From Candidatus Collierbacteria bacterium RIFOXYD2_FULL_45_13 (lineage in GTDB: Bacteria > Patescibacteriota > Microgenomatia > UBA1400 > MFAQ01), in contig MFAS01000001.1 of the NCBI GenBank assembly GCA_001774685.1, positions 801,444-865,443 on the forward strand: a stretch of 64,000 bases of DNA, read 5' to 3'. The position numbers and the translations under genes were made by a program. Shown here piece after piece: positions 9,000 to 63,871 of the stretch; the first letter of the stretch is position 1, and the number at the start of each line of letters is the position of its first letter. The notes beneath the pieces were generated by a model that did no database searches, was not told the origin of the DNA, and worked only from the letters and a program-made list of their open reading frames with translations.

Positions 9000-9055
9000 T
9001 TGACAAGACGACCCTGAGGGGATAAAATTCCCCAAAATCTATTTTGGAGGTTACC
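9000..9055 (+). promoter_or_regulatory. sigma70 promoter and SD of accessory unit
   Basis: TTGACA 9000-9005, 17 nt, TAAAAT 9023-9028; GGAGG 9046-9050. Confidence 0.75.
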
Positions 9056-9310
9056 TTGACAAATATTGTATTGTGGATCGTCGTTGCCGGATTTGTCTGG
9101 ATCGAATGGAATCACCGTGCCAAAAAGGATGGCAAGCGAGAAGCCACAAAGGCCATGCTCTTTGCCGGATGTGTCTTTTTGGTTGGAGTTGTCGCCATGC
9201 ACTATGGTGGAGTAGTGGGCTTGTTAATCTTGAGCTCCTTTTTACTCCTCACTCTCATTGGTCTTTTCATCTACCGTAATCGTCAATTCAGAAGCAACAC
9301 TCCTGAATGA
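9056..9310 (+). CDS. Small hypothetical membrane protein (about 3 TM)
   Basis: TTG start 5 nt after GGAGG; hydrophobic ORF followed by terminator. Confidence 0.7.
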   Translation: MTNIVLWIVVAGFVWIEWNHRAKKDGKREATKAMLFAGCVFLVGVVAMHYGGVVGLLILSSFLLLTLIGLFIYRNRQFRSNTPE

Positions 9311-9321
9311 TTTCTACCTCG

Positions 9322-9381
9322 AAATCCACCCATATGGGTGGATTTTTTTGCCCAAAAAAACTCCGGCCCAAAGACCGGAGA
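9322..9381. terminator. Back-to-back terminators for two convergent accessory genes
   Basis: AAATCCACCC-ATAT-GGGTGGATTTTTTT, then AAAAAAA-CTCCGG-CCCAAAGA-CCGGAG. Confidence 0.75.
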
Positions 9382-9387
9382 GGTGAA

Positions 9388-9666
9388 TTAATCGATCTGC
9401 TCTACCACAACAGCAACCAAGAGCAAAGCCCACAGACAGGCTGCGTTTAGGGTCATATATATAGCGGCGGCTACAGCTAAACTGCATAGACAGGCTACAA
9501 ACCCAGCCGGCAGTTTGTTGTTGCAACCACGAACATTCTGGACCACAACAGCTACTGCAAGCAAGCCCCAAAGCGAACCGGCCGTTTGGGTAAAATAGAG
9601 TGCCACTCCGACAGCGGCCAAACCGCCCAAAACAGCCAAGACGTATCCCAATTCAGACTTAAACAT
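9388..9666 (-). CDS. Small membrane protein with internal duplication
   Basis: GGAGG then ATG (MFKSELG); two related halves ALYFTQTAGSLWGLLAVAVVV and AIYMTLNAACLWALLLVAVVV. Confidence 0.75.
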   Translation of the reverse strand: MFKSELGYVLAVLGGLAAVGVALYFTQTAGSLWGLLAVAVVVQNVRGCNNKLPAGFVACLCSLAVAAAIYMTLNAACLWALLLVAVVVEQID

Positions 9667-9736
9667 ATTGCCTCCAGCGGGGAAAAATTGTAAATTACAA
9701 ATCCTATAATACCACAACCGCCCTCATAGTCAAGCC

Positions 9737-10684
9737 CTATTTCAAGAATTTATCATGGATTTGCTTCAGTTGGGGATTGGTCACGTGAGTATAGATTTGG
9801 GTCGTTGCTACGTTTTTGTGACCCAACATTTCTTGCACGCTGCGCAGGTCCGCTCCTTGCTGGAGTAGGGTAGTGGCAAAGCTATGGCGAAGCACGTGTG
9901 GGCTCACCTTAATCGGCAAACCCGCTGATCGCCGATATTTCTCCACAATTCTCTGGATCCCTCTTATCGACAGCCTGGCCTTCTCATTGCCCATAGTTGG
10001 ATCCCAGTCACCGCTTTTGGGAACCCGCACCCACAAAGCTCTAAATGGATCTGTCCGGGCCGATAGATATCGACCCAACCATTGAGTGGCCCTCTCCGAC
10101 AAGAAAACCAGTCTCATTCTTCGACCCTTCCCCAAGATCCCGAACTCTCTCTCCTTCAAATCAATTTTATCAATATCCAGCTTGGCGAGTTCCGAAACAC
10201 GCAACCCTGTACTAAACAGCACTTCCAAAATAGTTCTATCACGCAGACCGCTGATATTTGAAGTATCCGGAGCCACGAGAAGTCTCTCCACCTGCTCCCG
10301 ATCTAGAAATTTTATTTGATGTTCTCCCGGCTTCGGTAGGTCCACTTTTTCCGCCGATAAAGTTTTTACCCCTTTTTTTGCGCAATATTTCAAAAACGCT
10401 CTCAGAGCGATGACGTAATAACTCTGCGTGGTAGGGGAGAGTCTCTTACCCTCTTTTGTCTCATATCTGGCCAAAAACAATCGATATTTACGAACCATCT
10501 CGCTAGTTAGTTTTTCTATATATTCCTGCTCGTAATGCTTCTCGAACCATTTGCGGAACATTCCCAGATAGTGAGAGTAGTTCCGTATCGTGAACTTGGA
10601 GTAGTTTTTCTCTACCTCAATAAAGCTCAGATATCGCTTAATCAAGATTCTAAGCCCTAAATCGTTTACCGGTTTTTTAACCAC
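9737..10684 (-). CDS. XerC/XerD-family tyrosine recombinase
   Basis: N-terminal SAM-like domain; catalytic set GLRVSEL, GKG, HVLRHSFAT, LGH...TTQIYTHV. Confidence 0.92.
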   Translation of the reverse strand: MVKKPVNDLGLRILIKRYLSFIEVEKNYSKFTIRNYSHYLGMFRKWFEKHYEQEYIEKLTSEMVRKYRLFLARYETKEGKRLSPTTQSYYVIALRAFLKYCAKKGVKTLSAEKVDLPKPGEHQIKFLDREQVERLLVAPDTSNISGLRDRTILEVLFSTGLRVSELAKLDIDKIDLKEREFGILGKGRRMRLVFLSERATQWLGRYLSARTDPFRALWVRVPKSGDWDPTMGNEKARLSIRGIQRIVEKYRRSAGLPIKVSPHVLRHSFATTLLQQGADLRSVQEMLGHKNVATTQIYTHVTNPQLKQIHDKFLK

Positions 10685-10700
10685 AATCCATCATACCAAA

Positions 10701-10714
10701 TTATTGTGCGACAC
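10701..10714. promoter_or_regulatory. dif-like half-site in the xer promoter
   Basis: TTATTGTGCGAC 10701-10712 is identical to 17428-17439 and lies just upstream of the xer -10 box (TATGAT on the minus strand, 10690-10695). Confidence 0.55.
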
Positions 10715-10743: not shown

Positions 10744-10815
10744 TTGACAGGCCGCAAAACCTAACTATAATATATCAAAGCTCTTTGATTCCATATGCTA
10801 TTTAGGAGGTAGAAC
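10744..10815 (+). promoter_or_regulatory. Promoter, boxA-like motif and SD
   Basis: TTGACA 10744, TATAAT 10766, GCTCTTTGA 10780-10788, AGGAGG 10804-10809. Confidence 0.75.
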
Positions 10816-11313
10816 ATGAAACTCGAGCACGAACATGGTCAAGGTCTGGTCGAATACGCTTTGATCTTAGTGTTGGTTGGCATTTCCGTCATTGTCATTC
10901 TCCAGTTTCTTGGTCCCGTAGTTTCCGCAGCTCTGGCTGGTGACCAAACAAGCATCATCTGGCTGGTAATCGGTGGTGGTGTAATCACCCTGATTCTTGG
11001 TGCAGCCTACTACGTGCTCGCCAGATTCGAAAAGTTCTCCGATTCGTACCAAGACGAAGGCAAGGAAAAGACAACCGATAAGACCGAAAAAGGACAAGGT
11101 CTGGCAGAATTTGCCCTCATCGTCCTCCTGGCAGCTATTGTCATCATGGCTGTGTCCATGTGGTATGAGCCAATTGTCACCCTCTTGCTATCCCTGCCCG
11201 TCACTTGGGGCACTGTCATAGGAATCATACTGGTTGGTGGTCTAATATTGGTAGGTCTCGGAGTCGCCATTAACCGTCTATGGAATAAAATCGACAAATA
11301 CCCTTACGAATAA
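10816..11313 (+). CDS. Tandem double Flp/type IVb prepilin-like protein
   Basis: Two class III signal motifs, GQGLVEYALIL and GQGLAEFALIV, each followed by two hydrophobic segments. Confidence 0.75.
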   Translation: MKLEHEHGQGLVEYALILVLVGISVIVILQFLGPVVSAALAGDQTSIIWLVIGGGVITLILGAAYYVLARFEKFSDSYQDEGKEKTTDKTEKGQGLAEFALIVLLAAIVIMAVSMWYEPIVTLLLSLPVTWGTVIGIILVGGLILVGLGVAINRLWNKIDKYPYE

Positions 11314-14042: not shown

Positions 14043-14044
14043 CA

Positions 14045-15931: not shown

Positions 15932-16042
15932 CTATACTCTAGCAAAGACCGAGCCTGTCTTTTGGATATCCTTTATAGTTGACACAACCCATAACGTGTC
16001 ATATACTCGACGAATATCCTTGTACTTTAAATGGAGGTTATT

Positions 16043-16798
16043 GTGACGCATAAGTACACCTTTTTGGCCCCGAATATCAAAGTATCCTTGATGTTTGCCG
16101 ACCTGTTCGTGGTCGCATACGATCAACCGGAGATTATGGTCGAGGCCGTAGGTGATGACTATGTTTGTAGTCATCTGATTTCCAAAATTGTCGATCAAAC
16201 TCTCACCGTTTCCTTTCCTGTCCCTCTACTAAACGGTCGGTACACTTCAACCGGGAGTCCACAGCAGATCAACGGCACTCTTTGTGTAGACTTCGAACCA
16301 GTTGATCTTTCGCGCAAGATTCAGGTGGTCATACACATTCCCGGCAACACTAACCTGGATGTCAAAAAACTAATAGGGAACTCGCACATCGGAAACTTTC
16401 AAGGCGACCTCACCCTCCAAGGTTTCATGGGGTTCGAGAACTTCACCGGTGCTGTCGGAAACTGCGAGATCGGCGCTTCATCCAGTTTTAAAGCAAGTGT
16501 TGAAAGGGTTGTCGGAAACTTAATGGTGAATGGATCCAGCAGCGCCAAGGTGCAAATTGGCGAGGTGTCAAGTCCTTCTATCAAACTGGATCTCTCTTCG
16601 CACGCCCACGTTTCAATTTCCGGCGGTATTGCCATCTCGACGAAAGTCTCGGGCTCATCGGGGGCGACGGCCAGTCTTGATATAGCCTCAGAAATTGCAG
16701 ACCTATCGGGCTCCAGTGGAGCAAACATACATCTAAGACACTGCATCAAGCCACCCCGTATCAGTAAAAGCAGTGGTGCCTCAGTCAGTGTCGGTTAA
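16043..16798 (+). CDS. DUF2807/DUF4097-like beta-repeat (adhesin/GIN-like) protein
   Basis: Repeated SSS/SSG-A motifs; TTGACA 15979, 17 nt, TATACT 16002; GGAGG then GTG. Confidence 0.65.
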   Translation: MTHKYTFLAPNIKVSLMFADLFVVAYDQPEIMVEAVGDDYVCSHLISKIVDQTLTVSFPVPLLNGRYTSTGSPQQINGTLCVDFEPVDLSRKIQVVIHIPGNTNLDVKKLIGNSHIGNFQGDLTLQGFMGFENFTGAVGNCEIGASSSFKASVERVVGNLMVNGSSSAKVQIGEVSSPSIKLDLSSHAHVSISGGIAISTKVSGSSGATASLDIASEIADLSGSSGANIHLRHCIKPPRISKSSGASVSVG

Positions 16799-16809
16799 TA
16801 TTTCTCTTC

Positions 16810-16833
16810 ACCCGTCCTTAGTGGCGGGTTTTT
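16810..16833 (+). terminator. Hairpin terminator
   Basis: ACCCGTC-CTTAGT-GGCGGGTTTTT. Confidence 0.7.
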
Positions 16834-17411
16834 CACATCGTGAAAAAAAACAAGGGACAGACAGGTAGGGGAGAGGGGAAAGAAAAGCAAAATGTCTAAG
16901 ATAACCCATAATGTATAGACCGGCAAAACCTGGTTACCTATCTAAAAAAAATTTAATAAATATGATTATATAAATGGGTGAAGATCTTCTTTATCAATAT
17001 TTTAATAAAAATATCTCGGCTCAAAAATATTCAAAAATTATTAAAGATTTTTAAATAGGAAACATAGATAAAATTGTTTGTAATCATGTCGCAAGATTCC
17101 ATAAAAACCCACCTCTAAGCCTGCAAAAATCGGGCTCGTAGAATGCCCCTAAAACGGCTTCTGGAACTTTTTATGGCTAGTTAATCATTGACCAAATACC
17201 TTGATATATCCACCCAAAGCTAAAATCGAGATAATTGCGGAAAAACTTTCGGGTTTATCTACAATTAGGCACAATCTGAGGCTATTAGGCTCGAATACGA
17301 AAGAATTGGCCACAGACAAAGACCGGAGAACAGATTTACTGCAAGTTTCGGGATTATCTACAAATAATCACGGAACATAATAGATACTACTCCGGTGCCT
17401 GCCTTATCGAG

Positions 17412-17443
17412 ATACGTCGCAAAAGTGTTATTGTGCGACGTAT
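17412..17443. other. dif-like Xer recombination site (near-palindromic 11-6-11)
   Basis: ACGTCGCAAAA GTGTTA TTGTGCGACGT (17414-17441) in a 1 kb gene-free region toward which most core genes point. Confidence 0.6.
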
Positions 17444-17653
17444 TAGAAATCATTCTTCTCTGTCTCCATGTTTTGGATAAATAGGGAACTATAGAATAGT
17501 GTCCGCATTCTTTCATCCCCTCGTTACACTAACTCCAACTCATCGTCGCCGGCAAATTCTAATAAAATATTATTATTCGCTTCCTCGTCGGTCTTATCTC
17601 GCCCGCCTTACGCGCCGTACCAAACAACCATATCAATCCCTATCACCTGGCAG

Positions 17654-17662
17654 TTATCCACA
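17654..17662 (+). promoter_or_regulatory. Consensus DnaA box
   Basis: TTATCCACA; one-mismatch TTATCTACA copies at 17255 and 17354. Confidence 0.4.
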
Positions 17663-17821
17663 AACGGTGCCAATTTTCGTGAAAACTATGGGGTTTCGTG
17701 AAAACTATTATAGGCCCCATAACGTTATGGGTTTATTATAGGTCTCATAGTTATAGGCCCTCTCCCCTTCCAACCCGTCCCCGTATTTTTTTTGAGTTCT
17801 TGAATTTTTGAGTTTTTTTAT

Positions 17822-25262: not shown

Positions 25263-25320
25263 CCAGCTTCGGAAAAAGGGGCTATAATCTGGACATCTTG
25301 CACCTTAAAGGAGAAACGAG

Positions 25321-25659
25321 ATGGATCTTTACCTTGTCTTTAAAAATGATAAGCACCAATTCTTAACCGATCCGGCTCCCGAACAGATGGAAGGCGCAGA
25401 AGTTCTCGCCCGCAGATTGAATCTGTCATTGGGCTGCCTGGAACGCGCAAAATTCTTGTTACTGGAAGTCGCGGCCTTTGACATGTTCAAACGGAGTTTG
25501 GAAAAAATGCTTCCCGATCGGCCAGTCTTCTTTTTCCAAATGGCCAAAGAATTTGACTCTCAGGTACCACCGGCCTTTTTGATCAACTGGCGCGCGATGG
25601 CGGAGTTTGGTCTTCGAGTACTCCAAAATCACTACCAACAGCTACCCACCCTGGCCTAA
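25321..25659 (+). CDS. Hypothetical protein (accessory unit)
   Basis: TATAAT 25283, TGCACCTTAAA 25299, AAGGAG, terminator 25681-25704. Confidence 0.7.
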   Translation: MDLYLVFKNDKHQFLTDPAPEQMEGAEVLARRLNLSLGCLERAKFLLLEVAAFDMFKRSLEKMLPDRPVFFFQMAKEFDSQVPPAFLINWRAMAEFGLRVLQNHYQQLPTLA

Positions 25660-26558: not shown

Positions 26559-26663
26559 ATGCCTCGATCCACACGAACCCGTCAAAAGGCGGGTTCTTTT
26601 AGCTCTCACGTATTTGATACAATATGGGTTATAGCCTCAGTAAGCACGCTAAAAAGGAGACAT

Positions 26664-26819
26664 ATGGTTACCATCGCACTGCTCGTCGTCTTTCTACTTA
26701 TCGCGAGTAAGGGATTCACTTTTGGTTGGGCCCTTTACTTAGTTGGCATGGTTATTCTTGCCACAGTCCTTCTCAGAATTCACCTGTACTTCGCGAACAA
26801 GAATCTTCACTCACAGTGA
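26664..26819 (+). CDS. Small 2-TM protein
   Basis: TGATACAAT, AGCACGCTAAAA, AAGGAG, terminator AACCCGCT-AATT-GGCGGGTTTTT 26828-26850. Confidence 0.65.
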   Translation: MVTIALLVVFLLIASKGFTFGWALYLVGMVILATVLLRIHLYFANKNLHSQ

Positions 26820-27107: not shown

Positions 27108-27272
27108 TAAACAAATATCCTCCACTCGCGGGGAGATATTTTGTTTTGACAATCAGAGGCTATTCAGTCAAGTAAATTCTCGCAAGACGCTCATGAGGGC
27201 GTCTTTTTCTTGACATATGGAGCCCTATAATCTACAATTCACCGAGTACGCAATTTGAAAAAAGGAGAAACC

Positions 27273-27641
27273 GTGAAGCTTAAAACCTTTTCGCTTGCTG
27301 TTATCGCGCTGATTCTGCTCGCAATGATCTTCCTATATTTCAACCAGCCGGCCGACATTTCACCCCTACCCATGTTCGTTGCTGGTGGCTTCGGTATTGC
27401 CCTCTATGCCTGGCTCTATCTGTTCTCAGTAGCAGATTTTGAATACGTCAAGATTCATTACAAAAAATATCTGATGGTACATCTGATGGAAGATCAGAGT
27501 TTCACCCCAGACCCCAAGCTCAAAATGCCTTCAAAACGCTTTTTTGGACGCTGGACGGTCTACTATGACGCGGCCCAAGAAATCGGTTATTGGCAAGACC
27601 ATCCGCTTTTCGGAGGCAAGTGGTACATCATGTATCACTAA
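27273..27641 (+). CDS. Hypothetical membrane protein (accessory unit)
   Basis: TTGACA 27210, 17 nt, TACAAT; CGCAATTTGAAA; AAGGAG-GTG; terminator AGACCCC-GCAA-GGGGTCT 27649-27670. Confidence 0.7.
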   Translation: MKLKTFSLAVIALILLAMIFLYFNQPADISPLPMFVAGGFGIALYAWLYLFSVADFEYVKIHYKKYLMVHLMEDQSFTPDPKLKMPSKRFFGRWTVYYDAAQEIGYWQDHPLFGGKWYIMYH

Positions 27642-29095: not shown

Positions 29096-30415
29096 CTACT
29101 TCTGGTGTCCCCGATCCACGCCATAAAACTTAACCCGATCTCCTCTGAACTTCAGATCGATAGACCCAAGTCCCCCGTTTCGGTGTTTAGCGATTGAAAG
29201 TTTCATGTCCTCCAAATTATTATCGTCAGTCCGGTACATAAACATCACCACATCGGCATCTTGCTCAATGCTTCCTGACTCACGCAGATCGGCCAGCTGG
29301 GGAATCTTTTCGGTTCGGCTTTCTATTCCCCGATTTAACTGAGATAAAGCCAGTACGGGAATCTTCAGCTCACGGGCCAAGTTTTTAAGACCCTGAGAGA
29401 TGGCACCCACTTCTTGAACGCGACTTTCGTAGCTTTTGTCCCCAACCACAAGCTGTAAATAATCAACTACCAATAGTTTCAAACCAACCTGAGAGTGTAA
29501 CTTTCTTGCTTTGGTACGGAGCTCCAAAATTGATTGTCCTGGGGTGTCATCAATATATAGAGGACAATCGGCCAAGACTCCCATGGCTTCCGAAAGACGA
29601 GCAAAGTCGTCTTCCTTGAGATTACCCGTTTTTAGTTTCCAGGCATCGATATTGGCCTGGCCCACCAGCATACGGTCGACCATTTCCAGATTACTCATTT
29701 CCAGAGCAAAATAACCGACAGGCATTTTTCTCTCTACTGCGGCGAATTGTGCGATATTGGTTGCTAGAGTTGTTTTTCCTATACCCGGACGAGCCGCCAA
29801 GATAATTAAGTTGCTATCCTGCATGCCGGCAAGCATATTGTCGAGATCCGAAAATCCGGTGGGCACACCTCTCAACCCGTCAGGAGAGTTGTGCAATGAG
29901 TCCAAACGGTCAAAGCTTTCGGCCAAGGCATCCTTAATCGGCACAAAAGACTTTCGCACGTGGCTTTGAGACAAAGCATATATCGATTGCTCGGCTTTAT
30001 CCAGGATCTCCCCAAGAGGTTTCCCTTCATCAAACCCCATCTCCCCCATCTGAGCTCCCGCCGAAATTAATAATCTTTTGATATGACAATCTCTAACAAT
30101 CTGAGCATACTTTTGAACATGAGAGGCTACCGGCACCTCGTTTGACAGCTCAGACAAATACGCTCTACCCCCGACTCTATCCAAAAGCTTGTTCTTTTTC
30201 AGCCAATCTGAAACCGTCAGAACGTCAATAGGGTCTCGGTTTTCATACAAGGTCACCATCGCTTCAAAAATCTTGCCGTTGTTGTCGTTGTAAAACATCT
30301 CCGGTTGCAAAACAACCGCGATATCAACAATGGCGTCCTTATCAATTAAAACCGATCCGAGTATTGATTTTTCTGCTTCATCCGCATGAGGTGGGAGCCT
30401 AAGAATAGAACTCAT
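29096..30415 (-). CDS. dnaB: Replicative DNA helicase
   Basis: AARPGIGKT, VDYLQL, LSQLNR, DLRESGSIEQDAD, KHRNG. Confidence 0.97.
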   Translation of the reverse strand: MSSILRLPPHADEAEKSILGSVLIDKDAIVDIAVVLQPEMFYNDNNGKIFEAMVTLYENRDPIDVLTVSDWLKKNKLLDRVGGRAYLSELSNEVPVASHVQKYAQIVRDCHIKRLLISAGAQMGEMGFDEGKPLGEILDKAEQSIYALSQSHVRKSFVPIKDALAESFDRLDSLHNSPDGLRGVPTGFSDLDNMLAGMQDSNLIILAARPGIGKTTLATNIAQFAAVERKMPVGYFALEMSNLEMVDRMLVGQANIDAWKLKTGNLKEDDFARLSEAMGVLADCPLYIDDTPGQSILELRTKARKLHSQVGLKLLVVDYLQLVVGDKSYESRVQEVGAISQGLKNLARELKIPVLALSQLNRGIESRTEKIPQLADLRESGSIEQDADVVMFMYRTDDNNLEDMKLSIAKHRNGGLGSIDLKFRGDRVKFYGVDRGHQK

Positions 30416-30566
30416 TTCCGGATCTCCTTTCGTAACGAAAGCATGTGTTTTCGAGCGAAAAGCTTGAAGCGCGACGAAGGTGTAATACAAAGGAATTACA
30501 TCTAGAAGCGCTGAGGGCTTTGCAGCCGAAAAGACGTGGTTGCAGCAGAATGGAGATTCGGAAGTG
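30413..30566. repeat. About 150 nt imperfect palindromic element overlapping the dnaB start
   Basis: CATTTCCGGATCTCC pairs with GGAGATTCGGAAGTG; inner arms AGGTGTAAT/ATTACATCT and others. Confidence 0.7.
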
Positions 30567-30570
30567 GGTT

Positions 30571-33415: not shown

Positions 33416-33524
33416 GTGGCTTGTTTGATCGTTATTTGTGTAGTTTGATTTTTCGGCATCAATATGCTATTATAGGTTACATCAGACCAATTCCACAGGC
33501 ACCTTAAGAGAGGAGAAAAAATTC

Positions 33525-35349: not shown

Positions 35350-35455
35350 CTCCACCTATTTGTTTTTTACCTCACCTGTGATAATATATAGGACGTAAAC
35401 TTTACGCACGCTGAAATTAACAGAAAGACTCTAAATTTCCCCCACGGAGGCAGTC

Positions 35456-36673: not shown

Positions 36674-36799
36674 GTACCTCACCCTCCGCACCACGCGGAG
36701 GGTTTTTTGTAGGTGATGCTCTTGCCTCACCCTAGATCGCTGTTATAATCACCGTTGTTACGCCCTTTTACATCCACTTTATTACAGGAGAAGCGAAAA

Positions 36800-37754: not shown

Positions 37755-37789
37755 CCCCCCGCCACCTGGCGGGGAATTTTGTGCCTAAA
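37755..37789 (+). repeat. 35 bp terminator-containing direct repeat, copy 1
   Basis: CCCCCCGCCACCTGGCGGGGAATTTTGTGCCTAAA. Confidence 0.85.
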
Positions 37790-37868
37790 TCTTATATTGA
37801 TCTAATTTGATATAATACGTTAGACTTACAGAGTCCATCTTTAACTTCATTTTCACCAGGAGGCCGTT

Positions 37869-38769: not shown

Positions 38770-38837
38770 ACCCATTTGTGTTACAGTTTGATACAATATA
38801 GGACAAGAACTTTTAAATCACGCAGTCGGAGGCTATT

Positions 38838-40922: not shown

Positions 40923-40923
40923 A

Positions 40924-41674: not shown

Positions 41675-41683
41675 ATCGCTTTA

Positions 41684-42001
41684 TTAAATCCTAATCAATA
41701 AAAATCTTAACATTTTGTCATCCATCTGCAAATCTTTCTCCAGGAGCTGGGCTGCTTCGGAAGTGCCTTCGATAGTCAGCTTTAGGTAATACCCTCGGCT
41801 CTGCTTTTTAATCTCGTAAGCCATAGTCTTCGTTCCCCATTTATCCACACTAATCACCTTGAGAGCACGCTTCTTGCACTTCTCAGCGATTTGTTTGTCT
41901 GCCCCAAGATCGTTCTCGGAGGAAGGATAGATGACAACGAGCTCGTACTTGTTTACGACGCCCATGGACGGTTTGGTTTCGGTTGTCTTTGTCTTTTTCA
42001 C
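41684..42001 (-). CDS. rpsF: 30S ribosomal protein bS6
   Basis: KYELVVI, WGTKTMAYEIKK, GYY; synteny rpsF-ssb-rpsR. Confidence 0.9.
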   Translation of the reverse strand: MKKTKTTETKPSMGVVNKYELVVIYPSSENDLGADKQIAEKCKKRALKVISVDKWGTKTMAYEIKKQSRGYYLKLTIEGTSEAAQLLEKDLQMDDKMLRFLLIRI

Positions 42002-42166
42002 AAATTTTTTATAATTATTACTTGTCCGCCTTTGGGCGGAACTTGGCTATTTTACTACAAACAGGTGCCCTCTGCCCGAGCGCCTTCCCCGCACAACAGC
42101 TTGACAATTCACCAAACAACCTATAGAATCACCCAAGTTCAAATCTTGCACCTGAAAAGAGGAAAC

Positions 42167-42544
42167 ATGAAGGCTATTTACTTTCTAAGGAACTCAGCAG
42201 TTGTGTTGTTTGTTGTCCTATCTGTAGTAGCGGCAATCGTTCAGTCAAAACCGATATTTCTCGCTGGCGTAGTGGCCTTAGCGATTAGTGTCATCCTTCT
42301 CAGCTTGACACCGGTTTTGCCCCCATCCACTTTACAAAAGACTATCAACAATATTTCCCTGATCTTGTTCATTATCATGATCGCCGCCATCTTGGTGACG
42401 GGTTTGGGTTCCATCATTCCGATGGCACTGGGCTATACACTCGTAGCCAACAGCATGTACCAAATTGCCTACTTCATCGCCCCATTTGCCATTTTTGCTG
42501 CGGGGAGTGCGATGCTCTCAGTTGACCGAACCAATTCGGACTGA
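42167..42544 (+). CDS. 4-TM hypothetical protein (accessory unit)
   Basis: TTGACA 42101, 17 nt, TAGAAT; TGCACCTGAAAA; terminator CCCCGCTTC-GAAA-GAGGCGGGG 42552-42579. Confidence 0.72.
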   Translation: MKAIYFLRNSAVVLFVVLSVVAAIVQSKPIFLAGVVALAISVILLSLTPVLPPSTLQKTINNISLILFIIMIAAILVTGLGSIIPMALGYTLVANSMYQIAYFIAPFAIFAAGSAMLSVDRTNSD

Positions 42545-42629
42545 CCCACTTCCCCGCTTCGAAAGAGGCGGGGCTTTTTATTGCCACAAAAATGCGCCTC
42601 CATAAGGAAGCGCAGAGATAAGAAAATCG

Positions 42630-42914
42630 TCAGAAGCCGAATATTGCACCACCGGACAAAATCGCCAACAGGAGTACAAAAATGATGTCTCCGCAAACAA
42701 TAATCAAGGCATAGCCCATGATCTTGCTCCATTCCTTGTAGGCCGGGTGGTATTGATTCCAAATATAGACGGCCGAGGCAAACACCACCAGATAACACAG
42801 GGCACCCATCAGCCAGGGCACTATACCTACAAAAACTGCCAGCCAGGTCATGAGCACAAAAACCACCAACTGGACACTTAATGCCACATAAGTCTTCTTG
42901 TTTTCACTTGACAT
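42630..42914 (-). CDS. Small membrane protein
   Basis: GGAGG then ATG (MSSENKK), about 3 TM. Confidence 0.68.
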   Translation of the reverse strand: MSSENKKTYVALSVQLVVFVLMTWLAVFVGIVPWLMGALCYLVVFASAVYIWNQYHPAYKEWSKIMGYALIIVCGDIIFVLLLAILSGGAIFGF

Positions 42915-42945: not shown

Positions 42946-43215
42946 CTAAACGGCCAACAGGAATATTCCACCCAGAACCAATCCTGAGCCAAGCATCATT
43001 AGGGAAAGATTCAAGCCTATAAACCCCAAAATACTTGCATCTCCGTCCTGGTCGTACTTTTTCTTGCTTTGATAGAGGGAAGTGGCAATAATCAACATTG
43101 CAGAGACCGCTCCCATCAGAAATGAAGGAAGTCCGGAGATGATCACACCGAAAATTAGAATCAAAATATTCAGTACGAAACAAACCACCGAAGCAATCAC
43201 TATATCTTTGTTCAT
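42946..43215 (-). CDS. Small membrane protein
   Basis: GAGGAG SD, about 3 TM. Confidence 0.68.
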   Translation of the reverse strand: MNKDIVIASVVCFVLNILILIFGVIISGLPSFLMGAVSAMLIIATSLYQSKKKYDQDGDASILGFIGLNLSLMMLGSGLVLGGIFLLAV

Positions 43216-43316
43216 TTACTCTCCTCAGAACCAAATTTTAGGGTACTTAGCAGCCCATTCTTACGTGCTTGGATACTACCACAAATCCACCTCGAAGTCA
43301 AGCTATGGGGTGTTAT

Positions 43317-44357
43317 TTAGGTTCCGATCATGAACTCAACCACATCTCCGTCTCTCATTGGATACTCCTTACCTTCGAACCTGACCTTTCCTTTTTCCGA
43401 AGCCTCTCTCCAACCGCCATGAACCACAAACTCGTCATAGTCACACACCTTAGCCTTAATAAACTTTTTCTCAAAATCGGTATGGATCACGGCGGCAGCT
43501 TGAGGAGCTTTTGTTCCCAACGGAATTGTCCACGCCCGGCTCTCCGTAATTCCGGTAGTTAGGAAGCTAATTAGTCCTAGAGTTTCGTAGGCATTTCTTA
43601 TCAGTTTGTCCAATCCCGACTCCTTAATTCCCAGATCAATCATGTATGCCCGTGCATCCTCTTCGGACAAACTTGAGAGTTCCGACTCCACCTTCGCGCA
43701 TATATATAACTCATCGGAAGCTACAGTTAGTCTTGGATCATCCTCACTAACATTAAAAACCTTGATCTCCTTCTTCATCGTCAACAAAAACAAATCCCTC
43801 GCCAGCTCAATCTCTTCTCCTGCGAGGATACTCCTTGCAGGTTTGCCAGCATTGAGTCCTTCAAAAAGTTTCTCTATCACTCCCCTTTTCTTCTCTTCAC
43901 CTTTGATCTTTAGATCTTTTGAGTTTTTAATTCTTTCTACGGTCTCCAGATCCTTTAAGATTAGTTCGGTTTCGATAACTTCATAATCGGTTTTTGGATC
44001 AACACTACCCTCTTTGACAATTTCTGAATCTTTAAAATCCCTTAAAACCTGCAGGATCACATCTACATCTCGTATATGAGTCAGAAACTTATTGCCCAAA
44101 CCGGCACCGGTAGCCGCCCCAGCCACCAATCCGGCAATATCTACAAACTCCACCGTCGCCGGGACTATTTTGACACTCTTGGATATTTCCGCCAACACCT
44201 TCAGCCTTTCATCTGGAACTTCCACAATACCCACATTTGGCTCAATGGTTGCAAAAGGATAGTTTGCCACCAAAGCCTGTTGACGCTTTAACAGCGCATT
44301 AAAAAGCGTCGACTTCCCCACATTTGGTAACCCCACGATTCCAATCTTTAATCCCAT
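43317..44357 (-). CDS. ychF: Ribosome-binding ATPase YchF
   Basis: GLPNVGKST, ANYPFATIEPN, DIAGLV, GLGNKFL, TGS domain. Confidence 0.96.
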   Translation of the reverse strand: MGLKIGIVGLPNVGKSTLFNALLKRQQALVANYPFATIEPNVGIVEVPDERLKVLAEISKSVKIVPATVEFVDIAGLVAGAATGAGLGNKFLTHIRDVDVILQVLRDFKDSEIVKEGSVDPKTDYEVIETELILKDLETVERIKNSKDLKIKGEEKKRGVIEKLFEGLNAGKPARSILAGEEIELARDLFLLTMKKEIKVFNVSEDDPRLTVASDELYICAKVESELSSLSEEDARAYMIDLGIKESGLDKLIRNAYETLGLISFLTTGITESRAWTIPLGTKAPQAAAVIHTDFEKKFIKAKVCDYDEFVVHGGWREASEKGKVRFEGKEYPMRDGDVVEFMIGT

Positions 44358-44677: not shown

Positions 44678-45193
44678 TTACGTGGGCAACTTTTCTCCAT
44701 ACCAGAGATCGGACAACAACGACTTTTTTTGTTTGTAGGCCTCTACAGCCGCTTTATCCCCAAAACTGTTCAGACAATTCAAGACTTCCTTCTCACTCAT
44801 ACCAAACCCTGAGGCATGTACCACCAATTGTCCCACAATATCAGCCAAGATTAGCTCTTCGGCATATGTTCCGCATAAAACAAAAAGGTGACTTCTTCTG
44901 GAAACATTAAAAAAGCGTAGTTGTTTTGCGTACTTACGGATAAAAGACTTTATTCTCCTTCTCGAGGATTTTATTTGCACGGGTAACTCTTTCCGGTGTC
45001 CATTCATCTTGATTGCTTTCAAGAATGAGGGGTTAACCTGGACAAACATGTCATAACCATCTTCGTCTTCGTCACCATTTTGCACAGTTTCCCGTATTTC
45101 AATAACCCATGGTCTCTTTTTGAATACCCGGCTTACGGTATCACACGACTCCTTGCCTCTCGCATCAGAATCAACATCATCCGGCTGCTTCAA
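44678..45193 (-). CDS. PD-(D/E)xK nuclease-like protein
   Basis: RGKES...GYDMFV...PVQIKSS; GGAGGTG SD; terminator ATCCCGTCT-AATG-AGACGGGAT 44633-44654. Confidence 0.55.
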   Translation of the reverse strand: MKQPDDVDSDARGKESCDTVSRVFKKRPWVIEIRETVQNGDEDEDGYDMFVQVNPSFLKAIKMNGHRKELPVQIKSSRRRIKSFIRKYAKQLRFFNVSRRSHLFVLCGTYAEELILADIVGQLVVHASGFGMSEKEVLNCLNSFGDKAAVEAYKQKKSLLSDLWYGEKLPT

Positions 45194-45251
45194 ACATTAC
45201 ACCTCCATTTTCAAGGATCGTGCTCCAATTTTACTCCTATTTTGGCGGAAA

Positions 45252-49194: not shown

Positions 49195-49240
49195 TGGTGA
49201 TAAAATATTGAGGATCAACTTTCAAAGGAGGTACTTTTAT

Positions 49241-49774
49241 ATGACCCAAGATTTGTTAAGGTTTACCTGGAATCATGGTACTTACACCATCCCGGCGGAC
49301 ACCGAAAAACGCAAGATCCTACTCCCCAGCGGCCGGCTTCTGACCTTCAACGGCTTTCTCGAAAGTTTTCCACCTCAGCTCAGGGAACTTCGCGAGTTCA
49401 ACTTCCACATCGAAGTTGGACCAGGATCCAATCTTTCAGTGGTCGCGGATCAGCTGGACGCCGTTCTGGCCAAAGCCGTCACCGTCACCCTGGTGAAGAC
49501 TTGCCCACAAGGCTGTATGAATCAAACCGGAACCTTCTGCTCCAACTGCGGCTCCCGTCTGGAAGTGAAAGAGGTTGTCCTGCCCTTCGTTCCCGACAAA
49601 CCCAAACCGTTCCAAAATCCAGCCAACTCCGTAGACGTCATAGGCAGCGGTCCTTGCCCTAACTGCCACCAGCCCCTGGATCATGGAGCTCACGCCAGCT
49701 CGTGTCCCAATTGTGGACAAAAGCTCAACTGGACCTGTCGCGGCGGAATTAACATGCGCTGTACCCTTTCATAG
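49241..49774 (+). CDS. Double zinc-ribbon protein
   Basis: CPQGC, CSNCG, CPNC, CPNCG; AAGGAGG SD; terminator ACCCCGC-CTCACA-GCGGGGT 49803-49830. Confidence 0.72.
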   Translation: MTQDLLRFTWNHGTYTIPADTEKRKILLPSGRLLTFNGFLESFPPQLRELREFNFHIEVGPGSNLSVVADQLDAVLAKAVTVTLVKTCPQGCMNQTGTFCSNCGSRLEVKEVVLPFVPDKPKPFQNPANSVDVIGSGPCPNCHQPLDHGAHASSCPNCGQKLNWTCRGGINMRCTLS

Positions 49775-50595: not shown

Positions 50596-50699
50596 AGCTC
50601 AAGTATAGCACCGGAAAATTGACTTTTCCGGCGTTTTGTGGTACTATAGGGCGTTCTCTTACGCACGTTCTTTCACAATCTATCCCCTTTGGAGAAAAC

Positions 50700-51059
50700 A
50701 TGAAACCACTTTCAATCGTCTTTTATGTTGCCATGCTCGGTGTTCTCATTCTCTTCGGAGCTTCCTCTGAGCTTGGTTTAGGCATGCCAACGGTCCCGAA
50801 CACCGTGATTGCCGGCCTGCTCTTTCTCATGAGTTGTCTTTTCATCGGCGACATGCACAAAGGTGAACTTCTGTGGTCAAACCGAACCTCATTCTTTGGT
50901 ATCTGGATGCTGTCGGCTTTCACCATGTCCCTCATCGTCTCGTTGATCCTCATGGTTATGTGGGGCTTTGCAGGGCTCGTCGTCAGCCCCATCTGGGCTA
51001 TCGTGCTCGCCATGCTCATCTTTGACCACGGACTCAGTGTCTACCTAGCCGCCAACTAA
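50700..51059 (+). CDS. 4-TM hypothetical protein
   Basis: TTGACT 50619, 17 nt, TACTAT; CGTTCTTTCACA; GGAG. Confidence 0.72.
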   Translation: MKPLSIVFYVAMLGVLILFGASSELGLGMPTVPNTVIAGLLFLMSCLFIGDMHKGELLWSNRTSFFGIWMLSAFTMSLIVSLILMVMWGFAGLVVSPIWAIVLAMLIFDHGLSVYLAAN

Positions 51060-53077: not shown

Positions 53078-53521
53078 TCAAAAGTCATTCATAAACGCCG
53101 TACGTACCGTTTTCAAGTGTCTTTTGGTCAAAGCTCTGGGATCGTCCATGTCCGCAAAGACGGCATAGAGGTCATATACAAATCGGAAGCCCAACTTTAA
53201 CCCTTCGGCATAGAACTCAGCTGAGCCAGATCGCCGATAGCTCAAGTGAACAAACGAGTCTGCGTCGAAAAATTTATCTGCCGGCATGTAGAGATTGGCC
53301 ATTTCAAGAACCTGAGTTAAATCTCGGCTCCAATCTGCCAAACAATTCATCGCTTGTTCGGACATTTCAGTTAAACCCACCTTTAATCTATCCTCAGCCA
53401 GATTCATCCCTGTCATGATGCCATAGACCAAGGCATTCATATCAGCCGGATGGCACGAATCCGCTCTCATCTGCTCCAAACGAATTTTGGCCCGAACAGT
53501 TAGATCATAAACATCACTCAT
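53078..53521 (-). CDS. Hypothetical protein (accessory unit)
   Basis: TACACCTTGAAAA, GGAGG; terminator CACCCC-TTCG-GGGGTG plus T run (53049-53069). Confidence 0.7.
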   Translation of the reverse strand: MSDVYDLTVRAKIRLEQMRADSCHPADMNALVYGIMTGMNLAEDRLKVGLTEMSEQAMNCLADWSRDLTQVLEMANLYMPADKFFDADSFVHLSYRRSGSAEFYAEGLKLGFRFVYDLYAVFADMDDPRALTKRHLKTVRTAFMNDF

Positions 53522-53593
53522 TTTGCCTCCAACTTTTCAAGGTGTATTGCTTGCCTATGCTACCACACAATCATTTCCAAATCAAGCTATAGG

Positions 53594-56713: not shown

Positions 56714-56911
56714 TTATTTCACACCACAATTTTCAAGATACTTGTCAAAGGCTCGACCAATACTATAAGGATCTGGTGTTAATTGGTATAGAACCCCACC
56801 CATCTTACCTGAAATTGGCCGATTCTCATAAACGGCTTTTTTGTACATCCAAGAAAAAAATTGACCAACGCTCTCATTGGGTGACTTGTCATGAATTTCG
56901 TCTTGGGGCAT
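56714..56911 (-). CDS. Small hypothetical protein (accessory unit)
   Basis: AGTTCTTTAAACA, AAGGAG, hairpin 56666-56698. Confidence 0.65.
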   Translation of the reverse strand: MPQDEIHDKSPNESVGQFFSWMYKKAVYENRPISGKMGGVLYQLTPDPYSIGRAFDKYLENCGVK

Positions 56912-57024
56912 CTCTTCTCCTTTTTTATAGAACACTGTTTAAAGAACTCCTCCCGATGGTTCTATGATATCACTAGTTAAATTTTTACCACAAAATACCC
57001 TGCTAAAAATAGCAGGGAGTCAAA

Positions 57025-57330
57025 CTAATCCAATTGATCATGAGGTGCCCACTTATCCTCTAAACGAGTCAATATTTCTCTAAGCTGTTTTCCCGAGATG
57101 GCTCTGTCTGGATCAAAGCCGACAGGCCTGGCGGTCTGGTCAAACAGAAAGAATGTTACACCACCGGCCGCCAGCCTCTTCAACAATTCGTTGTAGGCAC
57201 TAAAGTCCGGATCTTCCCCATCGGAGAGCATCACAACAGTCTGGACGGTATAGTATTCCGTGGCTTCACATCCACCTTTCAAGAGCTGGTCGTTAGACGC
57301 ACTATCATCCACCGGGAAACTGAATGTCAT
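57025..57330 (-). CDS. Hypothetical protein (accessory unit)
   Basis: TATTCTTTGAAA, GAGGTG; hairpin CCCTGCTA-AAAA-TAGCAGGG 56998-57017. Confidence 0.65.
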   Translation of the reverse strand: MTFSFPVDDSASNDQLLKGGCEATEYYTVQTVVMLSDGEDPDFSAYNELLKRLAAGGVTFFLFDQTARPVGFDPDRAISGKQLREILTRLEDKWAPHDQLD

Positions 57331-57379
57331 TTTTCACCTCATTTCAAAGAATACGCTATTTTAGCATAAACTGTGAGTC

Positions 57380-61970: not shown

Positions 61971-62154
61971 ACTAACACCTTATGGCTTTTCACAGGCTAT
62001 GTCAACTGGAAAAAACTTGCTCATTCCTCTGTCTTTGACCGCTGTAGCCAGTTTTTCCGAAATTATCATGCCTAAATAACTTTTCACGCTACCAACATAT
62101 AAGTCTACCGAAGAAAAGGCATAAAAAATCCCCCGTTAACAGCGGGGGAAATAT

Positions 62155-62487
62155 CTATGATTCCACAATTACACGAAATATCGTTTTTTCTGCACCCAAA
62201 TCACGCTCAATGACCACCATACCGTCATCGAGATAGGTAATTGTAACTTTCTCTTTGTTCAGATCCCAAGTAATGTTACGGATCGGCTTCAGGGGAATTA
62301 CCAGACGACCATTATCGAAGGTGAAACCTGATAGCAGCTTAACCACCGCAGGAATAGCCTTGGGTTCAGCGCTCAAGCCCTTGCCCCGGAAAAAGGACAC
62401 GACCCTCAGAGGCTTGTCGAAAAGCTCTTCCACCAACTCCGTCGCCACCGCTTCACAGTTATCCATCGTGACAATTATTTTTCTCAT
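62155..62487 (-). CDS. Hypothetical protein, paralog B
   Basis: AAGGAG SD; terminator TCCCCCG-TTAACAG-CGGGGGA 62123-62149. Confidence 0.72.
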   Translation of the reverse strand: MRKIIVTMDNCEAVATELVEELFDKPLRVVSFFRGKGLSAEPKAIPAVVKLLSGFTFDNGRLVIPLKPIRNITWDLNKEKVTITYLDDGMVVIERDLGAEKTIFRVIVES

Positions 62488-62502
62488 AAACACTCCTTCT
62501 TC

Positions 62503-62874
62503 TCACACTATATCAACACTTATTATCATCGAATAGAAAATGGCGTTTAGAAAAGACTTTTCGATCGTGATTCTGCCGTCTTCATGAAAAGTTACAAACA
62601 CTCTCTCGGTAATCATATTCCACTGGATTTTTCGTTTTGGGGAGATCGGAATAGTCAAATTACCCGACTCAAAGTGATATCCAAGCTGGGGATCAAAACC
62701 AGGAATAGGACCATCGTCGTAGAGCCTCAAACCAGAGATCTTTTTAAACTTCGGTCTTGGTTTAATGTTTGTTTCAACACTTTGAATCGAAAAGGTCTTT
62801 TTTTGTAGTCTAGCAACTATCTCTCTTGCCACACTGATACAGTTATCGTCGGTAACCAGGATTACCTCATCCAT
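62503..62874 (-). CDS. Hypothetical protein, paralog A
   Basis: TGTTCCTTAAAACA, GGAGGTG; aligns with paralog B (VT.DNC..VA.E.V). Confidence 0.72.
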   Translation of the reverse strand: MDEVILVTDDNCISVAREIVARLQKKTFSIQSVETNIKPRPKFKKISGLRLYDDGPIPGFDPQLGYHFESGNLTIPISPKRKIQWNMITERVFVTFHEDGRITIEKSFLNAIFYSMIISVDIV

Positions 62875-62938
62875 CTTATTCACCTCCACAATGTTTTAAG
62901 GAACAGAGAACACCCATATTCTACCAACAATTAACCTG

Positions 62939-63325
62939 TTAGTCGTGATGAATTCCCAATAGATGAAGCAGACCGTGACATGCCAGGAACTCGATCTCTT
63001 CATCCACTAGACGGTTCCACTGCATGGCTTGTCTCTTTGCTTGAGGATAACAGACCACTATATCACCCAAATTCAGGCCGTCAAAATCGGCCGGCATCTC
63101 TTCTCCTTCTTGTAATGGAAAAGACAAAACGTCAGTTACTTCGTCCAGATTAAAATATTTTTGCTCCAACTCTCTTATCTTCCTTTCCCCCACTACACTA
63201 AAAGAAATCATGACCTTACCATCTAACCCCTGTTCCATCAAAACCTTACTCAAAGCGGCCTTGACTCTTTTCCGGTCAAAGCTATACCGGCTATCTGCGC
63301 TAATACTCAAATCCAGTTTTAACAT
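62939..63325 (-). CDS. ybeY: rRNA maturation endoribonuclease YbeY
   Basis: TDVLSFP, LGDIVVC, HGLLHLLGIHH. Confidence 0.95.
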   Translation of the reverse strand: MLKLDLSISADSRYSFDRKRVKAALSKVLMEQGLDGKVMISFSVVGERKIRELEQKYFNLDEVTDVLSFPLQEGEEMPADFDGLNLGDIVVCYPQAKRQAMQWNRLVDEEIEFLACHGLLHLLGIHHD

Positions 63326-63371
63326 ACTGCTATTCTACTTCATTGCCAGCAAACCACAAAAAACGGCCTCG

Positions 63372-63812
63372 TTAGAGGCCGTCATCGAGAATCAAAAATC
63401 TCTGAATCTCACTCTCCACTCCTTCAACCGGAACCAGCACTGTCTCATAAATCAAGACAAATTGGTGTCCTATTTCCGGAGATGGCCAACTTGGGATCAT
63501 ACATTGTGCTCTGACCGTCAAGGTTGGTTGAGCCAAATTGTAAAAAGTGGCTACATCATAGTAGAAGCCATTTGAATAAAGAGCACTCTCCTCAATCGAC
63601 ATCACGACCCAAATGTTCCCTGGCATGGCCGTCGGGACTAAGGTTGCCGTCATAACCGGCAAGGGAGTGGGGGTAGCAAGCATTACGGGTGTGGAAACCG
63701 CAAACGCCGGCTCTCCGGCCCGATTCTGGTTGCGCCAACTAAAATACAAAACTCCCAGCACGATCAATAAGACAAGAGATCCCACACCAATCCATACCCA
63801 TTTTTTATCCAT
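63372..63812 (-). CDS. Membrane-anchored exported protein (accessory unit)
   Basis: TATAAT, GGAGG, N-terminal TM, P/T linker; hairpin ACGGCCTC-GTTA-GAGGCCGT. Confidence 0.7.
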   Translation of the reverse strand: MDKKWVWIGVGSLVLLIVLGVLYFSWRNQNRAGEPAFAVSTPVMLATPTPLPVMTATLVPTAMPGNIWVVMSIEESALYSNGFYYDVATFYNLAQPTLTVRAQCMIPSWPSPEIGHQFVLIYETVLVPVEGVESEIQRFLILDDGL

Positions 63813-63871
63813 CTCAACCTCCAAGGAAAATTATCTATAAACGTCCGACAATAGATACATTATAGAGGTAA

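What the first reader, a model, noticed from the sequence alone, without database searches (positions are those of the whole stretch)
9000..63865. boxA-like motif in the 5' leader of most orphan accessory genes
Seen: between the -10 box and the SD of the small orphan genes there is a recurring 11-12 nt motif. Plus strand: GCTCTTTGA 10780, TATTCTTAACA 13587, TGTACTTTAAA 16021, TGCACCTTAAA 25299, AGCACGCTAAAA 26643, CGCAATTTGAAA 27249, GGCACCTTAAGA 33498, CGCACGCTGAAA 35405, CGCCCTTTTACA 36761, CCATCTTTAAC 37835, AGAACTTTTAAA 38806, TGCACCTGAAAA 42147, CGTTCTTTCACA 50666. Minus strand: TGTAATTTACAA 9688-9699, AGTACCCTAAAA 43236-43247, CGATCCTTGAAAA 45208-45220, TACACCTTGAAAA 53534-53546, AGTTCTTTAAACA 56936-56948, TATTCTTTGAAA 57342-57353, TGTTCCTTAAAACA 62892-62905. 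Rough consensus GYWCYTTRAMA. Established: rrn boxA (TGCTCTTTAACA) binds NusB-NusE(S10) for antitermination, and Nus binding to a leader boxA represses translation of E. coli suhB. Inference: unrelated accessory genes are tagged as one class and controlled together by a Nus/boxA-like mechanism. The motif is degenerate, and a few units (9056, 37437, 63812) lack a clear copy.
Basis: partly seen in the sequence, partly recalled or inferred. Interest (0 to 1): 0.85.

Follow-up and report, generated by a model that had tools for sequence, protein, structure and literature searches.

The report
boxA signal on accessory-gene mRNA leaders
In this tiny uncultured bacterium, a short RNA signal known mainly from ribosomal RNA genes also starts over a hundred mostly unknown protein genes, while housekeeping genes lack it, which suggests the cell runs two separate ways of making messenger RNA.

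Summary
The motif is real and genome-wide. De novo discovery on 223 SD-led leaders outside the window recovers nGYACnTTRAMA. It scores >=7 bits in 13 of 28 held-out window leaders against 33 of 1400 shuffles, and in 1 of 251 on the opposite strand. The same matrix picks this genome's 16S and 23S leader boxA (10.8, 10.7 bits) and E. coli suhB boxA (11.7). NusB, S10, NusG, NusA and Rho are present; SuhB was not found. Correction: it tags SD-led, leadered transcripts rather than orphans as such. Core genes are largely leaderless; 96 of 109 tested box genes lack a Pfam match. Box units end in intrinsic terminators (95 of 115) and leaderless units do not (23 of 310), though this follows the SD class more than the box. 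Best reading: NusB-S10 loads an rRNA-type, Rho-resistant elongation complex on accessory mRNAs (0.5); suhB-type repression is the main rival (0.25). No binding or expression data. The scan noted this pattern before in other Patescibacteria; my literature searches found no report. New variant of a known kind.

The parts
9688..9699 (-). weak boxA-like site (6.2 bits) in the leader of orphan 9388-9666
10779..10790 (+). boxA-like site (6.9 bits), leader of orphan 10816-11313
16021..16032 (+). boxA (10.1 bits) abutting the SD of orphan 16043-16798
25299..25310 (+). boxA (7.2 bits) touching the SD of orphan 25321-25659; the homologue in G003 keeps a 10.8-bit site
26643..26654 (+). boxA (10.6 bits), leader of 26664-26819; identical site in the G005 homologue (42% protein identity)
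27249..27260 (+). boxA (10.4 bits), leader of 27273-27641
33498..33509 (+). boxA (7.9 bits), leader of 33525-33905
35405..35416 (+). boxA (11.5 bits), 29 nt before the SD of 35456-36673; the G003 homologue (34% identity) has an 11.3-bit site
36761..36772 (+). boxA (8.6 bits), leader of 36800-37327
37835..37846 (+). weak site (4.4 bits), leader of 37869-38723; kept in G003 and G004 homologues
38806..38817 (+). boxA (10.0 bits), leader of the ORF ending at 39647 (SD-spaced start probably CTG at 38838)
42147..42158 (+). boxA (9.7 bits), leader of the ORF ending at 42544
43236..43247 (-). boxA (10.5 bits), leader of 42946-43215
45209..45220 (-). boxA (10.8 bits), leader of 44678-45193; homologues in G004, G011 and G012 keep 10.4-12.1-bit sites
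49215..49226 (+). weak site (6.3 bits), leader of 49241-49774
50666..50677 (+). boxA (10.7 bits), one base different from the E. coli suhB site; leader of 50700-51059
53535..53546 (-). boxA (9.4 bits), leader of 53078-53521
56937..56948 (-). boxA (8.0 bits), leader of 56714-56911
57342..57353 (-). boxA (7.5 bits), leader of 57025-57330
62894..62905 (-). boxA (10.3 bits), one base different from this genome's 23S leader boxA; leader of 62503-62874
63836..63847 (-). weak site (6.4 bits), leader of 63372-63812
9023..9055 (+). SD-led orphan leader with a strong promoter and no boxA (also the leader before 37437)
37757..37781 (+). example of the GC hairpin plus T-run intrinsic terminators that close these units (related copies at 38737, 39656, 49804, 51540; a second family at 14014, 26822)

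Best explanation
The motif is boxA, the single-stranded RNA site bound by NusB-S10 (NusE). This lineage has two expression grammars. Core genes are mostly leaderless and their units rarely end in hairpin terminators, so they are probably stopped by Rho. Accessory genes are stand-alone units built like the genome's unlinked 16S and 23S units: strong sigma70-type promoter, boxA at or soon after +1, SD, ORF, intrinsic terminator. Shown by sequence: the architecture and the motif identity. Inferred: NusB-S10 binds the nascent leader and, through NusG, makes RNA polymerase Rho-resistant as on rRNA; the hairpin is then needed to stop it. The complex sits on or near the SD and holds NusG, so translation probably starts mostly after release. 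This lets new, poorly adapted genes be transcribed in full without ribosome coupling. About 0.85 that the site is read by NusB-S10; 0.5 for this whole mechanism.
For: The mRNA-derived matrix gives the top hit in both rrn leaders (10.8, 10.7), where only 4.5e-5 of genome positions reach 10.7. A matrix learned independently in G013 does the same (9.3, 9.7). 8 of 8 relatives with an assembled 16S leader carry a >=10.6-bit site just after the -10 box. Conserved columns G2, C5, U7, U8, A10 include G2, C5 and U8, the NusB/S10 contacts in PMC3177189 (passages). The B. subtilis NusB-bound consensus AUGAUCUUUGAAA has the same purine at position 4 (PMC13753749, section 5). The site is strand-specific and never upstream of the predicted start: its G lies 5-51 nt after the -10 box in 107 of 107. 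Homologues of box genes keep it (17 of 19 pairs) while homologues of weak or no-box SD genes mostly lack it (2 of 14). Terminators: box units 95 of 115, leaderless units 23 of 310; leaderless units with strong promoters 5 of 71. Box score rises with unit length (rho 0.27, p 3e-4, n 182; 0.21, p 0.04 in G013; 0.22, p 0.06 in pooled same-genus DNA).
Against: No binding, transcript or expression data. Terminators follow the SD class more than the box: among cleaned SD units, box+ 93 of 111 against box- 26 of 38 (p 0.06); G013 69 of 76 against 8 of 12 (p 0.04); pooled genus 31 of 37 against 17 of 21 (p 1). Box genes are not consistently more C-rich (Rho-prone) than leaderless genes. SuhB, part of the E. 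coli complex, was not found. Both tested mRNA-leader cases in 10.1101/091223 (suhB, CKO_00699) are repression, and 52 of 111 sites lie within 4 nt of the SD. Rho (134 of 151) and NusB (149 of 151) occur across the order, so their presence does not explain where the pattern is abundant. Rho was not found in 5 box-rich relatives; in the 3 checked the neighbourhood is largely missing too, so this is inconclusive.
Confidence: 0.5

Rival explanations
1. suhB-type repression on a regulon scale: NusB-S10 at boxA blocks initiation at the adjacent SD and Rho then ends the transcript. Free NusB-S10, which depends on rRNA synthesis, acts as one switch for more than 100 accessory genes, for example between free and host-attached states.
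For: Same geometry as suhB (boxA 6 nt from the SD; 10.1101/091223, parts 1-3 of 5 read); 63 of 111 sites lie within 6 nt of the SD; the suhB site scores 11.7 bits; Rho is present; a weak site (6.2 bits) precedes rpsJ, a putative autoregulated target in that paper.
Against: Does not explain why these units, unlike core units, carry hairpin terminators or why longer units have better boxes. Spacing to the SD reaches 38 nt, though suhB repression tolerated long insertions. SuhB was not found, and suhB repression needed the full Nus complex.
Confidence: 0.25
2. A post-transcriptional role: NusB(-S10) or another RNA-binding protein sits at the 5' end and protects leadered mRNA from 5' decay or helps 30S loading at the SD in a cell tuned to leaderless initiation.
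For: One site per transcript, only on SD-led first genes (internal SD genes 3 of 51); 18 of 107 sites begin at about +1.
Against: The same site at rRNA leaders points to a transcription complex; S1 and an intact anti-SD are present, so no helper is obviously needed; tRNA and tmRNA leaders lack it (1 of 39). RNase J was not checked.
Confidence: 0.15
3. A DNA-level element: a repressor operator, part of the promoter, or a sigma-dependent pause site resembling a -10 hexamer.
For: It lies just downstream of strong promoters; the commonest form contains TAnnnT.
Against: Non-palindromic, strand-specific, variable distance to the -10 box; only 28 of 111 sites contain TAnnnT at that register; the rrn sites have T at position 4.
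Confidence: 0.06
4. No function: an A/T-rich leader bias, an anti-SD hairpin arm, or a by-product of cassette duplication.
For: The motif is degenerate, and the strict gammaproteobacterial consensus has 0 hits within 50 nt of starts here.
Against: 13-20-fold over shuffles; rediscovered de novo in G013 (log-likelihood 209.5 against 33.7); kept in diverged homologues; absent from E. coli (1 of 27) and SPbeta (1 of 31) SD leaders; predicted motif-SD pairing is low (median 0.28 pairs).
Confidence: 0.03

Closest known systems
rrn boxA and the rRNA antitermination complex (NusB, NusE/S10, NusA, NusG; plus SuhB and S4 in E. coli)
   Same: Same sequence class and contact positions; same place just after the promoter; this genome's 16S and 23S leaders carry it; NusA, B, E and G are encoded.
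   Different: Here it precedes more than 110 protein-coding units; SuhB was not found; no shared boxB or boxC was looked for systematically; the cargo is translated.
[quoted passage not shown]
   Same: boxA in an mRNA leader a few bases from the SD; the suhB site scores 11.7 bits on this matrix.
   Different: That survey found 0-7 exact matches per gammaproteobacterial genome before conserved genes. Its strict consensus finds 0 here, so the counts are not like for like; my matrix on 150 kb of E. coli gave 1 of 27. Here the targets are lineage-specific and define a whole transcript class.
boxA in CRISPR array leaders (named in PMC13753749; the primary paper was not held, and its detail is recalled)
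   Same: Non-rRNA use of boxA at the 5' end of a transcript, reported to protect it from Rho.
   Different: Those transcripts are non-coding; here they are SD-led mRNAs.
ops/RfaH antitermination of xenogeneic operons (PMC12360218, passages)
   Same: A short leader signal that marks foreign or accessory genes for Rho-resistant transcription.
   Different: ops is a DNA element read by a NusG paralogue on a few long operons; this is a boxA-type RNA element on many short units, and one NusG match was found.

Membership tests
boxA (NusB-NusE binding site) | Sequence matches the organism's own rrn leader boxA | tested here: met
   mRNA-trained matrix scores the 16S and 23S leader sites 10.8 and 10.7 as top hits; 8 of 8 relatives' 16S leaders
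boxA (NusB-NusE binding site) | Conserved G2, C5, pyrimidine 6 and U8 contact bases | tested here: inconclusive
   G2 0.78, C5 0.80, U8 0.90 are met; position 6 is relaxed (T 0.38, A 0.29, C 0.20, G 0.13) and is G in the genome's own 16S site (PMC3177189 passages)
boxA (NusB-NusE binding site) | Lies in the transcript, on the sense strand only | tested here: met
   opposite strand 1 of 251; downstream of the -10 box in 107 of 107; start sites are predicted, not mapped
boxA (NusB-NusE binding site) | Cognate NusB and S10 with RNA-binding residues | tested here: met
   NusB and S10 found. By my reading of the alignment to Aquifex NusB: F122 kept, E81 to D, G78 to N, K118 to T, S128 to A; the S10 DHR motif is kept
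boxA (NusB-NusE binding site) | Physical binding by NusB-S10 | not testable with these tools
   needs EMSA, ITC or CLIP
rrn-type antitermination complex | NusA, NusB, NusE, NusG and Rho encoded | tested here: met
rrn-type antitermination complex | SuhB component (E. coli form) | tested here: not met
   PF00459 has no match in G000 (99.7% complete) but rings in 14 of 14 control genomes
rrn-type antitermination complex | Read-through of Rho-dependent terminators | not testable with these tools
   indirect only: terminator pattern and length trend
suhB-type Nus repression | boxA close upstream of the SD | tested here: met
   63 of 111 within 6 nt
suhB-type Nus repression | Expression rises when boxA or nusB is mutated | not testable with these tools
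   uncultured organism; no reporter data

The most novel reading that the evidence does not exclude
This lineage has split its transcriptome in two: a leaderless, ribosome-coupled, Rho-terminated core, and an accessory class of 110-160 genes transcribed by the rRNA machinery (boxA-loaded Nus complex, uncoupled from translation, closed by hairpins). Free NusB-S10 would then be a single growth- or host-state switch for the whole fast-evolving accessory proteome, and boxA leaders the route by which new genes are licensed for expression.
Probability: 0.35. Interest if true: 0.9.

Novelty: new variant of a known kind. Interest (0 to 1): 0.77.

Why it matters
boxA is known from rRNA operons, lambdoid phage, CRISPR leaders and a few mRNAs. 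A genome where about 60% of promoter-proximal SD-led leaders carry it would be by far the largest Nus-factor regulon I could find, and it covers the lineage-specific genes whose expression in Patescibacteria is not understood. It also offers over 100 natural variants, with spacing from overlap to 38 nt, to test the open question of when boxA helps and when it blocks Rho, and whether SuhB is needed.

Tried and rejected
RNA-seq: no RNA holder listed for window 33001-42900, so no reads were laid. A looser pattern seemed to confine the signal to three genera, but that count depends on how many SD-led genes a genome has: the matrix still finds 9 of 27 in G017 from a 'negative' genus, so I dropped 'restricted to three genera'. 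Rho or NusB presence as the cause of the distribution: rejected. Rho loss in box-rich relatives: inconclusive (flanks of G005 and G008 not checked). C-rich, Rho-prone cargo: no consistent signal. My leading/lagging-strand test was void because cumulative skew is monotonic. The mixture estimate of 0.88 of clean SD leaders has no null calibration and is not used. De novo EM on G181 returned only the -10 box (46 leaders). No structure or complex prediction was run, since NusB-S10 is a textbook pair. The primary CRISPR boxA paper was not held. No supplements were read; the site table of 10.1101/091223 (gammaproteobacteria only) was not seen.
Full report
Setting. The window lies in G000, one contig of 1,089,434 bases, 45% G+C, 99.7% complete. 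Earlier scan notes on this genome call it Collierbacteria (Patescibacteria/CPR). I did not test that label directly; the monotonic cumulative GC skew fits what PMC7143001 (passages seen) describes for that group. Genes were called with my own hexamer or codon-based caller (1206 and 1226 genes), which makes some start errors.

Two kinds of gene start. Of the genes with at least 30 free bases upstream, 251 have a GGAGG-type SD, 258 have a TAnnnT hexamer 3-9 nt before the start codon and no SD (leaderless; spacing peak 6 nt, 99 of 258), and 222 have neither. The anti-SD is intact in G000 and in all 16 relatives' 16S ends printed.

Observation. All 20 listed strings are at the stated places. EM on the 40 nt before the SD of the 223 SD-led genes outside the window returned aGtACtTTaAaA (log-likelihood 217.6, fitted fraction 0.6; shuffled sets 46.3 and 46.2). 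With this matrix at 7 bits: training leaders 101 of 223 (shuffles 84 of 2230); held-out window leaders 13 of 28 (shuffles 33 of 1400); opposite strand 1 of 251; further upstream 5 of 251; internal SD genes 3 of 51; leaderless upstream 4 of 258; first 42 nt of leaderless CDS 9 of 258; neither class 12 of 222; internal non-SD 6 of 424. Among SD units with a good promoter and no sign of a mis-called start, 111 of 182 reach 7 bits.

Identity with boxA. The 16S and 23S genes are unlinked, each with its own promoter. The mRNA-trained matrix finds AGCTCGTTAACA just after the 16S -10 box (10.8 bits) and TGTTCCTTGAAA in the 23S leader (10.7 bits), each the top hit in its leader; 98 positions in the genome (4.5e-5) reach 10.7. 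All 8 relatives whose 16S leader was assembled have a site of at least 10.6 bits at the same place. The E. coli suhB leader scores 11.7, while E. coli SD leaders in 150 kb give 1 of 27 (shuffles 3 of 270) and phage SPbeta leaders 1 of 31 (10 of 310). The best-conserved columns are G2, C5, U7, U8 and A10; PMC3177189 (passages) names G2, C5, position 6 and U8 as NusB/S10 contacts, and position 6 is relaxed here. B. subtilis NusB binds AUGAUCUUUGAAA by NMR (PMC13753749, abstract and section 5 read), nearly the same as the site kept in homologues of window gene 44678-45193. The G of the motif lies 5-51 nt after the -10 box in all 107 cases with a good promoter, 18 of them at 5-6 nt as in the 16S leader. 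NusB, Rho, S10, NusG, NusA and an S1 with four strong domain matches are present, and SuhB was not found.

Which genes. Pfam matches at 1e-5: 13 of 109 box-positive SD genes (109 of 114 given), 29 of 116 other SD genes (116 of 137 given) and 79 of 110 leaderless genes (a random 110 of those in fetched regions, of 258). Within SD genes with a good promoter the box is in 93 of 154 without a Pfam match and 12 of 22 with one; about 7 of the 10 misses look like start errors by eye. So the tag follows the SD-led, leadered class, which here is almost the same set as the lineage-specific genes. In the syntenic region of nine same-genus relatives, leaderless core genes recur in most while SD-led genes are patchy. 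tRNA and tmRNA leaders lack the motif (1 of 39); rpsJ has a weak site (6.2 bits).

Unit architecture. A hairpin of -9 kcal/mol or better plus a U-tract ends 95 of 115 box units, 33 of 44 intermediate, 40 of 89 box-negative SD units, 23 of 310 leaderless and 24 of 190 other units; in G013, 67 of 74 box units against 9 of 88 leaderless. Promoter strength does not explain it: strong-promoter leaderless units have 5 of 71, 0 of 11 and 0 of 30. After cleaning, box-negative SD units also mostly have terminators (26 of 38 against 93 of 111, p 0.06; 8 of 12 against 69 of 76, p 0.04; 17 of 21 against 31 of 37, p 1), so the link is to the class. The 16S unit also ends in such a hairpin (by eye). Box score rises with unit length (rho 0.27, 0.21, 0.22; p 3e-4, 0.04, 0.06); cargo is not consistently C-rich.

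Conservation and range. For G000 box genes, 19 of 19 homologue pairs are SD-led and 17 of 19 keep a 7-bit site; for weak or no-box SD genes 2 of 14; for leaderless genes 4 of 119 (pairs are not independent, and the per-column identities there are biased by choosing the best site). EM on G013 alone finds the same motif (209.5 against 33.7 shuffled), and on pooled same-genus DNA it is the second solution after the -10 box. Matrix counts: G013 75 of 120, pooled genus 41 of 95, G017 9 of 27, G019 5 of 25, genus g7 0 of 8, G026 0 of 8, G374 0 of 3, G355 1 of 14, G181 (another family) 15 of 46. The G181 regions and two G019 contigs were chosen around earlier pattern hits, so those two counts are inflated. 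A pattern search shows an excess over the backwards control in all 9 same-genus genomes (13-32 against 2-11), most of genus g2 and both of g9, little in the other 8 family members and little in 123 genomes of other families. In 300 phylum genomes only a few stand out (e.g. G186, 19 against 2). Rho (134 of 151) and NusB (149 of 151) are order-wide.

Mechanism. Shown: a strand-specific, transcribed, conserved boxA-class motif on SD-led first genes, in units closed by intrinsic terminators, with the Nus factors and Rho encoded. From established knowledge: NusB/E on boxA builds a Rho-resistant complex that holds the NusG C-terminal domain, yet in some contexts promotes Rho action (PMC12360218, passages; 10.1101/091223, parts 1-3 of 5). 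Inferred: accessory units are transcribed in rRNA mode, protected from Rho and ended by hairpins, with translation largely after release (0.5). Rivals: regulon-wide suhB-type repression (0.25), a post-transcriptional role (0.15), a DNA element (0.06), no function (0.03). The first two could be conditional states of one system.

Novelty. boxA outside rRNA is known (suhB, one toxin-antitoxin gene, CRISPR leaders). The gammaproteobacterial survey found 0-7 exact matches per genome, but its strict consensus finds none here, so such surveys would miss this case. Eight library searches gave no paper on boxA leaders or a leaderless/SD split in Patescibacteria: boxA+NusB+Patescibacteria, leaderless+Patescibacteria+Shine-Dalgarno, boxA+mRNA leaders+CPR, leaderless+CPR, boxA+CRISPR+antitermination+Nus factors, intrinsic terminator+Patescibacteria+Rho, Collierbacteria/Microgenomates+boxA/NusB/Shine-Dalgarno and boxA+NusB+UTR+horizontally acquired+Rho. 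Most results were seen as listings only, and the library lacks most subscription journals. PMC12641178, PMC12641261 and PMC9297842 (passages) do not describe it in the passages seen. This scan has noted the same pattern in other Patescibacteria genomes, including another Collierbacteria; those are unchecked AI notes and not independent support. The phrase 'two grammars' comes from one of them. Verdict: real; a new variant of a known kind; interest 0.77.

Noticed in passing
G000:C1:17893-19389 and about C1:300 (outside the window): 16S and 23S rRNA genes are unlinked, about 17 kb apart with protein genes between; each has its own promoter and boxA.
   Followed up: partly
whole genome G000: Cumulative GC skew falls monotonically over the entire chromosome; the same pattern is published for this group (PMC7143001).
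   Followed up: yes
window 37755-39690: Two adjacent SD-led units share an identical 35-nt terminator region and similar N-termini (by eye); the second seems to start at CTG (38838), in frame with the ORF ending at 39647.
   Followed up: no
G000:C1:704966-706165 and 747832-748782: Nicotinate phosphoribosyltransferase and NAD synthase genes are SD-led with strong boxA sites (11.3 and 12.0 bits); two NrtR-type regulators lie elsewhere in the genome.
   Followed up: no
L008:3608-9988 (-): A 2127-aa protein with no Pfam match is SD-led and box-positive.
   Followed up: no
window 16800-17800: About 1 kb without a convincing long ORF, bounded by 35-nt inverted arms (16843-16877, 17758-17792) and partly conserved in five relatives; may hold a non-coding RNA.
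   Followed up: no
window 30406-30580: An element of about 155 nt upstream of dnaB has an 82%-identical copy at G000:C1:256927 and copies in relatives.
   Followed up: no
window 43317-44357 (-): YchF, reported to promote leaderless mRNA translation (PMC12641178 passage), appears itself leaderless and conserved in relatives.
   Followed up: no
G000:C1:309260-309304: Weak boxA-like site (6.2 bits) between tuf and rpsJ, a candidate for S10 autoregulation.
   Followed up: partly
window 17791, 23091, 32496, 43902: A degenerate 35-nt T-rich repeat family between core genes.
   Followed up: no
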